This document shows positions 44,701 to 47,700 of a stretch of DNA of 64,000 bases, piece by piece. The position numbers were made by a program. Each line of letters starts with the position of its first letter. Position 1 is the stretch's first letter. The stretch comes from an uncultured Puniceicoccaceae bacterium (GTDB lineage Bacteria > Verrucomicrobiota > Verrucomicrobiia > Opitutales > Oceanipulchritudinaceae), in NCBI GenBank assembly GCA_963933835.1, contig CAWVVV010000001.1:32001-96000 (forward strand), written 5' to 3'.

Positions 44701-47700
44701 ACTGTAGCTCCGCATTGCCCCAGCCGCAAAGGTTAGGACAGCCATCACCAATCTCGAAATTCCAGTTTACAGGATCCGGCGAACTCCCATTCGGAAGATC
44801 AAACTCATCCGCCCAGACTAAATCCCAACCGTCCGGGTCTTGAGCTGCCAATGGAGCCGAAAAATACAGTGAAGCGGCAAGCGCCAGGCCTAGCATCCGC
44901 TTATGCTCGAAGATAGGTTTCGAGGGGGCGATTTTGGGTAACATGGTAAATAACATAATTATGCATAATTAATCCGCAAGTCAGATCGTAAAAAAGAATT
45001 CTTCGGAGAATTAGACGCTCTCCGCCGGCCCGCGCATCAGAGTGATTGACCCTCACGGTTTGAGCGCACTCCTTCTTCAGCTTCCCGTATGAAAGTCGTC
45101 ATAGCTGAAAAACCATCCGTCGCGCGCGACATCGCGAAACATTTGGGTGCTACTAAGCGAGGGAACGGCTACATCGAGGGTGAGGGTTGGGCCATCACCT
45201 GGGCCTTTGGTCACCTCATCGAGCTGCAAGAGCCAGAGGACTATACCCCCGATTGGAAGCCTTGGCGGCTTTCCCAACTGCCCATCATTCCTGAGAAATT
45301 CGAACTGCGGCCGCGCGCCGACGGCTCCGCTGGCGAACAGCTCGCAACGATCAAGCGTCTCTTTGAAGAGGCTGACGAAATCATCTGCGCAACGGATGCG
45401 GGGCGCGAAGGTGAATTGATTTTTCGTTACATCCTCAACTGGACCGGCTGCGAAGATAAACCTGCCCAACGCCTCTGGATCAGCTCCCTGACCGATGAAG
45501 CGATCGCTAAAGGCTTCGCCAAGCTCAAACCCGCCAAGGACTACGACAATTTCTATCATGCCGCTCGCTGCCGGAGCGAAGCCGACTGGATCGTCGGGCT
45601 CAACGCCACCCGCTTTTTCACCGTCGAATATGGCCAGCGCAATTTGCTTCTAAGCCTCGGTCGCGTGCAGACGCCGATCCTTGCTTTGATCGTAAACCGC
45701 GATGTCGATGTAGAGCACTTTGTCCCAGAGGACTTCTGGGAGGTCGTCACGCAGTGCCGAGAGGCGAAGTTCAAACACACCGGGGGCAAGTTCAGTGTTC
45801 AAGCCGATGCCGAAGCCATCCTCGAGCGGATCGGCAACGAAGAACTCGTCATCACCTCGGTCGCAAAGAAGAACGCCCTCGCTCACCCGCCGCTGCTCTA
45901 CGACCTCACCAGTCTTCAGCGCGACATGAACAAGCGCTATGGGTTCACCGGTGATCAGACGCTCAAGGTCGCCCAAAGCCTCTACGAGCGAAAGCACCTC
46001 ACTTACCCTCGCACCGACAGCTGCTATTTAACGAAAGACATGCAGCCCACCATCGCGCCACTGATTGATAAACTCCGCCCGATGAAGCCGGCGGAAATCG
46101 GTGCGCTTGCGCTCGATCAGCTGAAGTTTTCCAAGCGCATCATCGACGACAAAAAAGTCGCGGATCACCACGCCATCATCCCAACACACATTCTAGGTCA
46201 CAATTTAGCGGGCGACGAAGCCAAGCTCTACGACGCCATCCTCACACGTCTCATCGCCGTCTTTTACCCGTCTGCAAAGCGGGCCGTTACGACGGTCGAA
46301 GCCACTGCGGCGGAAGAACCCTTTCGAGCCAAAGGCACCGTCATTGTCGACCTTGGCTGGGAGGCGCTCTACCAAAACGCTACAAGCTCCGAAGACGATT
46401 CGAAGAACTCGGACAAAGACAAAAAGGGAAAGGAAGAAGAGGACGAATCGAAACAGACTTTGCCCGACTTTTCAGAAGGAGAACGCAACCCGCACACCCC
46501 ATCCCTGACGAGCGGAAAAACCTCCGCCCCGAAACGCTTTAACGAAGCCAGCCTCCTCCAACTGATGGAGACGGCCGGTAAGATCGTAACCGACGAAACG
46601 CTCAAAGAGGCGCTGAAGGACAAAGGCGTCGGAACGCCTGCTACACGCGCATCGATCATCGAAGTTTTGATCAAGCGCCAATACGTTGAGCGCCGCCGTA
46701 AGGCGCTCATCAGCACTGATTCAGGTCGCGCCCTGATCTCCCTCGTGAAAGACGAACGGCTGAAGTCGCCTGAGCTCACCGGTGATTGGGAGTTCCGCCT
46801 CAAACAAATGGAACGGGGTGAATACGATCCGACCACCTTTATGAATGAGGTCGTGGCCTACACCCGCGAAATCCTTCAGGACAAAGCAAAGGATACGATC
46901 GATCTAAAGAACCTTGGGCCGTGCCCAAGCTGCCACTCGCCGATTATGAGAGGCCGCTCAGGATACGGGTGCTCGAAGTGGAAAAGTGGCTGTAGTTTCG
47001 TCCTGCCCGGCGTCATTTGGGAGCTCACGATCACTCCCCTCCTTGCCCGCGAGATCATCATCCATCGCCGCTCCCTCACGCCCCATCGTATCGTCATCGA
47101 TGAAAACACGCACTTCGCCCACCTCGTTATCGACAAGAAGGGAAAAGTCACTCACGAGGTTGCCGAGGTAACGAAGAGCGAAGGGAGTGCCGCCTCGCTC
47201 GGACCCTGCCCTGTCTGCGCCGGTGATGTCGTCGATGGGAAGAAAGCCTATGGTTGCTCGAATTGGCGCAACGGCTGCCGCTTTGTCGTCTGGAAAACGA
47301 TCGCGAAGAAAGATATCACACCCGAGATCGTCGACCAACTCCTGACTAAACAGGTCACCGATCAAATCGAAGGCTTCACCTCAAAGGCAGGCAAACCCTT
47401 CGCTGCGAAACTCAAGGTGATCGGCGGCGAAGTGAAATTTGGCTTCGCAAGCTAGCGTAGCGGCTTTTCTACTACTGTGTCCAAACGTGTATATTCGTCG
47501 TTACATTGACGGGGAAAGTAACATCAATCGTCACTGTTGCCGGATCATTTGAAACGTTATCGATCTCCGCTTCATATTTGATGGCATCGCCATGATCGGG
47601 AGTGAGAACGACCTGAACAGATACGATCGCATTGAAGTCCCGCGCCTGAACTGTAACTTGCTGATTCGGATCCGTTCCAAAGGGAAGGTTTACAAAGACG

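What a model noticed while it worked through the whole genome (the two positions that open the first line are those of the whole stretch)
45089..47455. No omega-type topoisomerase I: Topo III-type enzymes are the only type IA topoisomerases, in strict either/or with TopA [...]
The genome has no bacterial Topo I (TopA); its two type IA topoisomerases (g00077, 788 aa, and g00147, C1:151044-153545, 833 aa, 34% identical) both score as Topo III and carry C-terminal Toprim_Crpt zinc-ribbon modules. In 41 sampled genomes of the class exactly 35 have a Topo III-type enzyme and no TopA and the other 6 have TopA and no Topo III-type enzyme, while 79 of 80 genomes of the other classes of the phylum have TopA. 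I read this as a replacement of the supposedly universal, essential Topo I by a Topo III-derived enzyme that must now relax transcription-driven negative supercoils and hold R-loops down. New would be a large bacterial clade living without TopA, against the textbook ru [...]
Evidence so far: NCBIfam scan: g00077 NF005829 'DNA topoisomerase 3' 670.1 bits (cut 597), TIGR01056 topB 599.5 (cut 515.75), but TIGR01051 topA_bact 196.1 (cut 456.4); g00147 NF006032 'DNA topoisomerase III' 1027.2 (cut 1058), topB 515.7, topA_bact 194.0. Best five Swiss-Prot hits of both are Bacillus TopB, 37-40%; Pfam Toprim, Topoisom_bac, Toprim_Crpt x1 and x2; the two are 34% identical over 846 aa. Six-frame search with TIGR01051 at E<=1e-100: phylum sample of 121 genomes (all >=90% complete): 0 of 41 genomes of the own class (own, 1 same family, 20 same order, 19 same class) against 79 of 80 of other classes, all 79 over the curated cut-off. 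Second, class-only sample of 41 genomes from 20 families: Top [...]
(Added by a program. Inside this text positions count along the whole contig: contig position 32,001 is position 1 of the stretch shown here. "Call 12" and the like, gene names such as g00115 and contig names such as C1 are that model's own, and its searches are not shown. The text may have been shortened before it was handed on; [...] marks where a part breaks off. The agent that wrote the report below was given it as the finding of a first reader that could run no searches.)

Follow-up and report, generated by a model that had tools for sequence, protein, structure and literature searches.

The report
Accessory topoisomerase III in TopA-less genome
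This gene is an ordinary, patchily kept topoisomerase III, but the genome really has no topoisomerase I, the enzyme reviews call universal in bacteria; a second, longer topoisomerase III gene elsewhere on the contig appears to have taken its place.

Summary
Window 45089-47455 (+) is an intact 788-aa Topo III (TopB). The 97%-complete genome has only two type IA genes, and neither reaches the TopA cut-off.

The either/or pattern also holds in larger samples. In the class (Verrucomicrobiae by relatives' record titles), 21 of 151 genomes have TopA only, 129 have TopB-type only, none has both and one has neither.

The focal gene is an accessory, conventional TopB with orthologues in 4 of 151 class genomes. 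Its clade includes TopB proteins that co-occur with TopA in other classes.

The class-wide enzyme is the paralogue at contig C1:151044-153545, called TopB-L here (PRK08173/NF006032 type). In many families TopB-L sits in the dprA-[top]-xerC slot that TopA occupies in TopA-bearing relatives. The two states alternate within one family and within two of its genera.

The pattern is not special to this clade. In 121 Burkholderiales genomes, 65 have TopA only, 55 have TopB-L only and 1 has both, again behind dprA. A published B. cenocepacia topB conditional mutant needs its inducer to grow.

Relaxase activity of TopB-L is inferred, not shown. I found no paper reporting TopA-less bacteria.

The parts
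45089..47455 (+). g00077: conventional Topo III (TopB) gene, 788 aa, accessory in this lineage
   Evidence: ORF and translation. NF005829 670.1 bits and TIGR01056 599.5 bits, both over their cut-offs. Falls in the conventional-TopB clade. Orthologues in 4/151 class genomes.
45095..45487 (+). Toprim domain (aa 3-133), with the Glu-Lys pair 'AEKPS' at aa 6-10 and 'TDAGREGE' at aa 102-109
   Evidence: Pfam PF01751. Motif positions. Lys after the first Toprim Glu is a Topo III signature (Tan & Tse-Dinh 2024, PMC10969213, passage read).
45542..46843 (+). Topoisom_bac core (aa 152-585)
   Evidence: Pfam PF01131, 372.7 bits. Best solved relative is E. coli Topo III 1D6M at 293.6 bits, against TopA 1ECL at 92.7 bits.
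46001..46021 (+). Catalytic-tyrosine motif 'TYPRTDS' (aa 305-311), with Tyr followed by Pro
   Evidence: The Tyr-Pro signature of Topo III is from PMC10969213. The TopA rows in the alignment have 'TYMRTDS'.
46376..46540 (+). Charged, low-complexity insert (aa 430-484) before the 'RFNEASLL' helix
   Evidence: Seen in the translation. Function not examined.
46571..46621 (+). 17-residue TopB-only insert (aa 495-511), aligned with E. coli TopB 'GIARFVQDKDLKKILRA'. I recall this stretch as the decatenation loop.
   Evidence: Alignment: present in all 11 TopB-type rows and absent from all 4 TopA rows. The name and role of the loop are recalled, not from any call.
46922..46993 (+). First C4 zinc ribbon (aa 612-635), followed by a degenerate repeat
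   Evidence: Cys spacing CPxC...C...C. Aligns with module 1 of the paralogue.
47207..47446 (+). Second C4 zinc ribbon (aa 707-730) plus Toprim_Crpt repeat (aa 729-786)
   Evidence: Pfam PF13342, 70.4 bits, and a weak Zn_ribbon_PADR1 match. Motif positions.

Best explanation
The focal gene g00077 is a conventional bacterial Topo III (TopB). Its most likely job is to unlink and resolve replication and recombination intermediates. It is an accessory gene in this lineage.

The genome has no omega-type Topo I. Its full topoisomerase set is one gyrase (a gyrB-gyrA operon), this TopB, and a second, longer Topo III called TopB-L here (g00147, contig C1:151044-153545, outside the window; PRK08173/NF006032 type).

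TopB-L is the enzyme that replaced TopA. It has a Topo III core followed by repeated zinc-ribbon + Toprim_Crpt modules and a Lys/Ala-rich tail. I infer that it relaxes gyrase- and transcription-driven negative supercoils, holds R-loops down, and keeps the Topo III strand-passage abilities.

Shown:
- family membership of both genes;
- absence of TopA;
- mutual exclusion of TopA and TopB-L in two phyla;
- occupation of TopA's own dprA-[top]-xerC (or dprA-smg-[top]) slot;
- switching between the two states within a family and within genera.

Inferred:
- relaxase activity and any RNA polymerase coupling of TopB-L;
- cassette exchange through the conserved flanks as the mechanism of switching;
- export of TopB-L from Verrucomicrobiae to Betaproteobacteria.
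For: Family membership:
- HMM scores.
- TopA and TopB-type sequences are separated by a branch of length 1.75 with SH-aLRT 100.
- E-K and Y-P signatures and the TopB-only insert are present in both paralogues.
- The nearest solved structure for both is E. coli Topo III, at about 292 bits, against 92-113 bits for TopA.

Which paralogue is class-wide:
- g00077 falls in a 16-row clade (100*) with 8 same-order paralogues and 7 TopB proteins from other classes. These last come from G174, G176, G198, G202, G204, G335 and G338, genomes that also have TopA.
- g00147 falls in a 51-row clade (99*) covering 31 class families plus f55.
- g00077-type orthologues occur in 4/151 class genomes.
- NF006032-type matches at E<=1e-220 occur in 121/151, and 78 of these are over the curated cut-off.

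Mutual exclusion of TopA and TopB-L:
- Class: 0/151 genomes have both.
- Family f15: 23 TopA, 11 TopB-L, 0 both, out of 34. Genera g36 and g81 each hold both states.
- Burkholderiales: 65 TopA only, 55 TopB-L only, 1 both, 0 neither, out of 121.
- 10/10 named betaproteobacterial isolates that carry TopB-L have no TopA. In the 5 of them scanned with PF01131, TopB-L is the only type IA gene in 4; Thauera has two.

Synteny:
- In-class TopA: dprA directly upstream in 15/15 loci, xerC-like gene downstream in 13/15.
- TopB-L: dprA upstream in 15/51, xerC downstream in 13/51, both in 9/51. In f15 it is 5/5 with both.
- Conventional TopB: 0/16.
- Burkholderiales: dprA-smg-topA in G443 and G489, against dprA-(smg)-TopB-L in B. 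dolosa and Massilia.
- In the DprA tree f15 is one clade (100*), with TopA-linked and TopB-L-linked dprA interleaved.

No back-up relaxase:
- The own genome has one GyrA/ParC homologue (with a GyrA box), one GyrB, and no Topo IB.
- 70 of 129 TopA-less class genomes show a single GyrA/ParC match (counted by hand from the table).

TopA-like accessory domains on TopB-L:
- f15 TopB-L carries 3 Zn_ribbon_Top1 fingers.
- Hydrogenophaga TopB-L carries a SWIB domain.

Genetics:
- A B. cenocepacia K56-2 conditional topB (BCAL0462) mutant shows rhamnose-dependent growth (PMC6256756, passages read).
Against: - No enzyme assay or genetic test exists for any TopB-L in a TopA-less background. Relaxase activity is inference.
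- TopB-L keeps the TopB-only insert, so it could still be mainly a decatenase.
- 56 of 129 TopA-less class genomes have a second GyrA/ParC homologue that could relax DNA. From my own knowledge, not tested here, Burkholderia has Topo IV.
- The dprA/xerC synteny is absent in this genome's own order (0 of 16 TopB-L loci in f1-f5 and f51-f53). I found no dprA in this genome by tblastn. The in-situ argument is therefore carried over from other families.
- The B. cenocepacia topB knock-down was hypersusceptible to novobiocin. This is the opposite of the simple expectation for loss of a relaxase. The same mutant was also hypersusceptible to an FtsZ inhibitor.
- One Burkholderiales genome (G448) has both a 488-bit TopA-like gene and TopB-L.
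- All trees use LG+G4. The mixture-model runs did not finish.
Confidence: 0.7

Rival explanations
1. The focal gene g00077 is itself the TopA substitute in this genome, alone or redundantly with g00147.
For: It is intact, has the same zinc-ribbon + Toprim_Crpt tail design as the paralogue, and this genome has no Topo IV.
Against: Orthologues occur in only 4/151 class genomes, all in the own order. TopA-less relatives, including the same-family genome G109, manage without it. Its clade includes TopB proteins that co-occur with TopA in other classes. None of 16 loci of its clade lies in the dprA/xerC slot.
Confidence: 0.1
2. Nothing replaced TopA. These lineages tolerate its loss through lower gyrase activity or other adaptations, and TopB-L is only a decatenase or recombination enzyme.
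For: E. coli and B. subtilis topA mutants survive with gyrase mutations or Topo IV overproduction (PMC7140829, passages read). TopB-L keeps the TopB-only insert. 56/129 TopA-less class genomes have a second GyrA/ParC homologue.
Against: Near-perfect mutual exclusion: of the 272 genomes in the class and Burkholderiales samples, 1 has both and 1 has neither. TopB-L occupies TopA's own slot and the two states alternate within genera. TopA-type fingers are grafted onto TopB-L in f15. 70/129 TopA-less genomes have gyrase only. B. cenocepacia topB is needed for growth.
Confidence: 0.12
3. The clade's enzyme is a fast-evolving TopA descendant that merely scores as TopB.
For: None beyond the shared type IA fold. 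Its C-terminal zinc ribbons are superficially TopA-like.
Against: Full-length matches to the TopB models reach 515-670 bits (1027 bits on NF006032), against about 195 bits on the TopA model. It falls on the TopB side of a 1.75-length branch with 100% support. It has the E-K, Y-P and 17-residue insert signatures. Genuine TopA from the same class clusters with the phylum's TopA.
Confidence: 0.02
4. The absence of TopA is an artefact of incomplete or badly binned assemblies.
For: Most genomes are draft MAGs. One TopA gene (G041) lies on a 4-kb contig.
Against: The own genome is 97.35% complete. At least 14 single-contig class genomes lack TopA, e.g. G030, G037, G042, G046, G051, G085, G097 and G143. 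The pattern is 0/101 against 193/200 across classes. Named isolate genomes of Betaproteobacteria show the same.
Confidence: 0.01

Closest known systems
E. coli DNA topoisomerase III (TopB; PDB 1D6M, 1I7D, 2O19)
   Same: Best solved relative of both paralogues, at about 292 bits over residues 1-610. Shares the E-K and Y-P signatures and the TopB-only insert.
   Different: E. coli TopB ends in a short basic tail without repeats (PMC9369019, passage read), and E. coli also has TopA. Here both enzymes carry zinc-ribbon + Toprim_Crpt modules, and TopA is missing.
NCBIfam NF006032 / PRK08173 'DNA topoisomerase III' (long betaproteobacterial TopB)
   Same: The paralogue g00147 matches it end to end (residues 2-831 on model positions 3-833; 1027.2 bits). 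78/151 class genomes and 56/121 Burkholderiales genomes score over its cut-off. The named relatives are Burkholderia, Massilia, Cupriavidus, Nitrosomonas and Thauera.
   Different: The focal gene g00077 scores only 585.3 bits against a cut-off of 1058 and is not a member. The family name suggests an accessory TopB. Here it is the sole or main type IA enzyme.
Omega-type DNA topoisomerase I (TopA; E. coli 1ECL, 4RUL; TIGR01051)
   Same: The proposed role of TopB-L. TopB-L has the same genomic slot behind dprA and multi-module zinc-ribbon C-terminal regions. f15 TopB-L even carries Zn_ribbon_Top1 fingers.
   Different: It belongs to a different subfamily of type IA enzymes. TopA lacks the 17-residue insert and has E-S and Y-M where Topo III has E-K and Y-P.
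B. cenocepacia K56-2 topB (BCAL0462) conditional-growth mutant (Hogan et al. 2018, PMC6256756)
   Same: The gene was named topB by reciprocal best hit to E. coli, and the mutant's growth depends on rhamnose. B. dolosa, the member of the same genus tested here, has TopB-L as its only type IA gene.
   Different: In the passages I read, the authors do not remark that TopA is missing. I did not test the K56-2 genome itself.
Back-up between type IA enzymes in E. coli and B. subtilis (review: Brochu et al. 2020, PMC7140829)
   Same: [quoted passage not shown]
   Different: That is a laboratory back-up in cells that normally keep TopA. Here the replacement is natural, long-standing and clade-wide.

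Membership tests
Bacterial Topo III (TopB; TIGR01056 / NF005829) | Profile score over the curated cut-off | tested here: met
   g00077 scores 599.5 bits (cut-off 515.75) and 670.1 bits (cut-off 597).
Bacterial Topo III (TopB; TIGR01056 / NF005829) | Lys after the first Toprim Glu, and Pro after the catalytic Tyr (criteria from PMC10969213) | tested here: met
   'AEKPS' at aa 6-10 and 'TYPRTDS' at aa 305-311.
Bacterial Topo III (TopB; TIGR01056 / NF005829) | TopB-only insert of about 17 residues (I recall it as the decatenation loop, E. coli TopB roughly 502-519) | tested here: met
   The insert is aligned in all 11 TopB-type rows and gapped in all 4 TopA rows. The loop's name and role are recalled.
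Bacterial Topo III (TopB; TIGR01056 / NF005829) | Groups with E. coli TopB and away from TopA in a tree | tested here: met
   the TopA/TopB split has 100% support.
Bacterial Topo III (TopB; TIGR01056 / NF005829) | Strong decatenase and weak relaxase activity | not testable with these tools
   Needs an enzyme assay.
Omega-type Topo I (TopA; TIGR01051) | Profile score over the curated cut-off of 456.4 bits | tested here: not met
   g00077 scores 196.1 and g00147 scores 194.0. No other type IA gene is found in the genome.
Omega-type Topo I (TopA; TIGR01051) | Zn_ribbon_Top1 (PF01396) or Toprim_C_rpt C-terminal repeats | tested here: not met
   Pfam finds neither in g00077 or g00147. In-class TopA has 4 or 8 PF01396 repeats.
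Long Topo III, NF006032 / PRK08173 (TopB-L) | End-to-end match over the cut-off of 1058 bits | tested here: not met
   The focal gene g00077 scores 585.3 bits, and only over the core.
Long Topo III, NF006032 / PRK08173 (TopB-L), applied to the paralogue g00147 | End-to-end match over the cut-off, and placement in the clade | tested here: inconclusive
   1027.2 bits, just under the 1058 cut-off, but the match is end to end and the protein lies inside the 99-100% supported clade with named members.

The most novel reading that the evidence does not exclude
A distinct long subfamily of Topo III (PRK08173 type) is the housekeeping negative-supercoil relaxase of two large bacterial lineages: most Verrucomicrobiae and about half of the sampled Burkholderiales. 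It has displaced the supposedly universal TopA repeatedly, by swapping cassettes inside the conserved dprA-[top]-xerC slot, including within genera. Betaproteobacteria acquired it from Verrucomicrobiae. If so, the rule 'every bacterium has a Topo I' is wrong for thousands of species, some of them much-studied genera.
Probability: 0.6. Interest if true: 0.85.

Novelty: new variant of a known kind. Interest (0 to 1): 0.75.

Why it matters
Three reviews I read in part state that Topo I is present in all bacteria:
- Forterre & Gadelle 2009, PMC2647321;
- Brochu et al. 2020, PMC7140829;
- Tan & Tse-Dinh 2024, PMC10969213.

The counts here contradict that for most sampled Verrucomicrobiae and for 55 of 121 sampled Burkholderiales.

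A natural, repeated swap of TopA for a Topo III paralogue at one locus offers a ready experiment on what makes a type IA enzyme a relaxase rather than a decatenase. The C-terminal modules and any coupling to RNA polymerase are the obvious candidates.

It also bears on practical matters. It affects how "topB" is annotated, how essential-gene screens are read, and which bacteria a Topo I-directed inhibitor could reach.

For the focal gene itself the result is ordinary: it is a spare, conventional TopB.

Tried and rejected
- **Mixture-model trees.** LG+C20 PMSF on 90 rows did not finish in two 300-s runs. I fell back to LG+G4.
- **Fold of the TopB-L C-terminal region.** AlphaFold2 on a 30-row alignment gave mean pLDDT 90.4 for two repeats, each a small beta ribbon plus a helix and a sheet.
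  - Foldseek against the PDB gave nothing at E<=0.001 (best 0.11; E. coli TopA 4RUL at rank 14, E 0.52).
  - VIA-align wide search: the top hit was the E. coli TopA C-terminal region in the RNAP-TopoI complex 9GDA_F, but only at Z 3.8, rmsd 12 A over 80 residues. Next came zinc-ribbon proteins (RPB9, TFIIS) at Z about 3.
  - This is too weak to claim a TopA-like fold.
- **A scar of topA in this genome.** I found no dprA by tblastn. The xerC-like gene on C5 lies beside lepA, lepB, sppA and an Fe-S assembly gene, with no topoisomerase remnant.
- **A mobile-element origin for the focal gene.** Its neighbours are housekeeping genes: GH16, Ppnp, an aminotransferase, panC, CTP synthase and monomeric IDH.
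- **Akkermansia transposon-mutant data** (a 2023 paper I recall). The paper is not held and did not appear in searches, so essentiality in this class is untested. Its supplements could bear on the claim.
- **Earlier findings of this scan.** Nothing bears on TopA loss.
- **Literature on TopA-less bacteria.** Ten full-text searches found no paper reporting it. Subscription journals are not covered.
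Full report
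**The gene**

Window 45089-47455 (+) is an intact 788-aa ORF. It scores as Topo III: NF005829 670.1 bits (cut-off 597) and TIGR01056 599.5 bits (cut-off 515.75). It scores far below the TopA model: TIGR01051 196.1 bits against a cut-off of 456.4.

Pfam finds Toprim, Topoisom_bac and one Toprim_Crpt repeat. By eye there are two C4 zinc ribbons, at aa 612-635 and 707-730.

Tan & Tse-Dinh 2024 (PMC10969213, passage read) give two residues that separate Topo III from bacterial Topo I. Both are present here: Lys after the first Toprim Glu ('AEKPS') and Pro after the catalytic Tyr ('TYPRTDS').

The gene also has the 17-residue insert that aligns with E. coli TopB 'GIARFVQDKDLKKILRA' and is gapped in every TopA row. 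I recall this stretch as the decatenation loop; the name comes from no call.

The nearest solved structure is E. coli Topo III, at 293.6 bits. E. coli TopA scores about 92 bits.

The neighbours are housekeeping genes and there is no sign of a mobile element.

**The genome**

The assembly is 1.94 Mb in 10 contigs and 97.35% complete. It has exactly two type IA genes: this one and C1:151044-153545. Neither is over the TopA cut-off.

The second gene, g00147, is 833 aa and 34% identical to the first. It matches NF006032/PRK08173 end to end at 1027.2 bits (cut-off 1058) and has two Toprim_Crpt repeats.

The genome also has one gyrB-gyrA operon with a GyrA box. It has no second GyrA/ParC homologue, so no Topo IV, and no Topo IB.

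**Distribution**

In 151 class genomes from 50 families:

| State | Genomes |
|---|---|
| TopA over the cut-off, no TopB-type match at E<=1e-10 | 21 (f7 6/6, f15 14/20, f42 1/1) |
| TopB-type matches only | 129 |
| No type IA match (G072, 96% complete) | 1 |
| Both | 0 |

In 301 phylum genomes:

| Group | TopA (E<=1e-100) | TopB-type (E<=1e-100) |
|---|---|---|
| Own class | 0/101 | 101/101 |
| Other classes | 193/200 | 24/200 |

Of the 24 TopB-type genomes in other classes, 20 also have TopA. The other 4 belong to family f55, which has TopA in 0/5 genomes and whose enzyme nests inside the class clade. Topo III as such therefore co-occurs freely with TopA. The exclusion concerns only one subfamily.

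Record titles of the nearest relatives name Opitutales, Opitutae, Oleiharenicola, Chthoniobacterales and Verrucomicrobiales. The class is therefore Verrucomicrobiae in the broad sense.

**Which paralogue is class-wide**

Trees were built (quick; careful, 50 rows, 794 columns, LG+G4).

- The focal gene falls in a 'conventional TopB' clade with 100% support. Its companions are eight roughly 780-aa second copies from the same order, and seven TopB proteins of other classes whose genomes also have TopA.
- g00147 falls in a separate clade with 99-100% support that holds the single type IA gene of every TopA-less family sampled.
- Orthologues of the focal gene (E<=1e-180) occur in 4 of 151 class genomes, all in the own order.
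- NF006032-type matches at E<=1e-220 occur in 121 of 151, and 78 of these are over the curated cut-off.

The class-wide one, TopB-L, lies outside the window.

**TopB-L sits in TopA's place**

| Gene type | dprA directly upstream, same strand | xerC-like recombinase downstream | Both |
|---|---|---|---|
| In-class TopA | 15/15 | 13/15 | 13/15 |
| TopB-L | 15/51 | 13/51 | 9/51 |
| Conventional TopB | 0/16 | 0/16 | 0/16 |

- TopA of other classes shows dprA upstream in 4/8 loci and xerC downstream in 3/8.
- All five f15 TopB-L loci have both flanks.
- The slot is seen in 15 of the 32 families sampled. It is not seen in this genome's own order or in f6.

A tree of the flanking DprA follows taxonomy. 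f15 is one clade (100*), and inside it TopA-linked and TopB-L-linked dprA are interleaved. G041 and G022, of one genus, are sisters, and G011 and G094 are sisters at 98%.

All 34 f15 genomes held were then scanned. 23 have TopA, 11 have TopB-L and none has both. Genera g36 and g81 each contain both states.

I read this as repeated exchange of the gene between conserved flanks. That mechanism is an inference.

In-class TopA forms one clade. It is sister to the TopA of two other families of the phylum and does not group with proteobacterial TopA. This fits an ancestral dprA-topA-xerC arrangement.

**The pattern repeats in Betaproteobacteria**

The closest outside relatives of TopB-L, at 45-50% identity over the full length, are from Burkholderia, Paraburkholderia, Cupriavidus, Massilia, Janthinobacterium, Nitrosomonas, Thauera, Hydrogenophaga and others. 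That scan covered only 2 of 64 parts of the collection.

Ten of ten named isolates tested have no TopA over the cut-off. In the five scanned with PF01131, TopB-L is the only type IA gene in four, and Thauera has two.

In 121 genomes of the order of Burkholderia dolosa:

| State | Genomes |
|---|---|
| TopA only | 65 |
| TopB-L only | 55 |
| Both (G448) | 1 |
| Neither | 0 |

There too the gene lies behind dprA. G443 and G489 have dprA-smg-topA. B. dolosa and Massilia have dprA-(smg)-TopB-L, and most named loci show dprA upstream.

In the careful tree the betaproteobacterial sequences nest inside the verrucomicrobial diversity. A 17-row group has 100/100 support, and Verrucomicrobial TopB-L forms one side of a branch in 0 of 200 bootstrap trees. 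With the root on conventional TopB, this suggests transfer from Verrucomicrobiae to Betaproteobacteria. That direction depends on the root and on sparse sampling.

**Hints about function**

- Without TopA, Topo IV or Topo IB, this genome needs something to oppose gyrase. 70 of 129 TopA-less class genomes likewise show a single GyrA/ParC match (hand count, and matches are not copy numbers).
- f15 TopB-L proteins are chimeras: a Topo III core, one Toprim_Crpt repeat and three TopA-type Zn_ribbon_Top1 fingers.
- Hydrogenophaga TopB-L ends in a SWIB domain. Chlamydia TopA carries such a domain too (PMC12445093, abstract seen).
- This genome's own TopB-L has lost the zinc-binding cysteines of both ribbons.
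- In B. cenocepacia K56-2 a conditional topB (BCAL0462) mutant grows only with inducer. Knock-downs were hypersusceptible to novobiocin and to an FtsZ inhibitor (PMC6256756, passages read).
- The reviews note that E. coli Topo III can relax transcription-driven supercoils in vitro, less well than Topo I (PMC7140829).
- No assay of a TopB-L enzyme was found.

**What remains weak**

- Relaxase activity, RNA polymerase coupling and essentiality in Verrucomicrobiae are all untested.
- The in-situ evidence comes from families other than this genome's own.
- The trees lack a site-heterogeneous model.
- The C-terminal fold search was inconclusive.

**Novelty**

Three reviews state that all bacteria have Topo I. 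Ten full-text searches found no report of TopA-less bacteria. Subscription journals and most supplements were out of reach.

The enzyme family itself is known and annotated as 'DNA topoisomerase III'. What appears to be new is its role as the natural, repeated, locus-for-locus replacement of TopA in two phyla.

**Verdict**

- The focal gene is ordinary. The surrounding finding is of high interest.

Noticed in passing
L062:445-3138 (-) and L065:897-3557 (-) (family f15 genomes G022 and G070): These TopB-L proteins are chimeras: a Topo III core, one Toprim_Crpt repeat and three TopA-type Zn_ribbon_Top1 (PF01396) fingers. They occur in the very family where TopA and TopB-L alternate at one locus.
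   Followed up: partly
L168:3394-4413 (+) (Hydrogenophaga defluvii): The TopB-L C-terminus carries a SWIB/MDM2 domain (PF02201, 86.1 bits). Chlamydia TopA has a similar fusion.
   Followed up: no
L081:218-4399 (+) (G156, another class of the phylum): A 1394-aa single-chain fusion of Topo III, RecQ and HRDC (Toprim, Topoisom_bac, DEAD, Helicase_C, RecQ_Zn_bind, HRDC). This genome also has TopA.
   Followed up: partly
L054, L055, L056 (family f4 genomes G290, G079, G385): A third, very divergent type IA paralogue of 855-901 aa on a branch of length about 1.6-1.8. It begins 'AEKPDVGR', has one weak Toprim_Crpt repeat, and scores only 348-381 bits on the TopB model.
   Followed up: no
Own genome G000 (whole); xerC-like gene at C5:36478-37368: tblastn with two DprA queries finds no dprA homologue at E<=1e-5. 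The xerC-like gene lies beside lepA, lepB, sppA and an Fe-S assembly gene, with no topoisomerase nearby.
   Followed up: partly
L193:6045-8543 (own g00147); alignment A2: This genome's TopB-L, and those of families f1, f2, f4, f5, f10, f11 and f24, have lost the cysteines of the zinc ribbons. Other families and Betaproteobacteria keep CPxCG...C..C.
   Followed up: no
L021, L023, L025, L027, L035 (family f3, same order): TopB-L of f3 groups with f6 and f35 of other orders, not with the other same-order families, at 96-100% support. This suggests transfer or old paralogy inside the class.
   Followed up: no
L114, L118, L131, L162: MAG records titled Pseudomonadales, Chitinophaga pinensis, Bifidobacterium and Bifidobacteriaceae carry TopB-L genes that cluster tightly with Verrucomicrobia or Betaproteobacteria. 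The bins are probably mislabelled or contaminated.
   Followed up: no
G448 (order of Burkholderia dolosa): C3:96921-98591 and C1:4340243-4342945: This is the only one of 121 genomes with both a TopA-like gene (488 bits, aligned over model positions 1-574) and a TopB-L (1459.8 bits). It may be a transitional or recently acquired state.
   Followed up: no
window 46376-46540: A 55-residue Asp/Glu/Lys/Ser-rich insert in the focal TopB, just before the conserved 'RFNEASLL' segment. The paralogue has a different, shorter stretch at this point.
   Followed up: no
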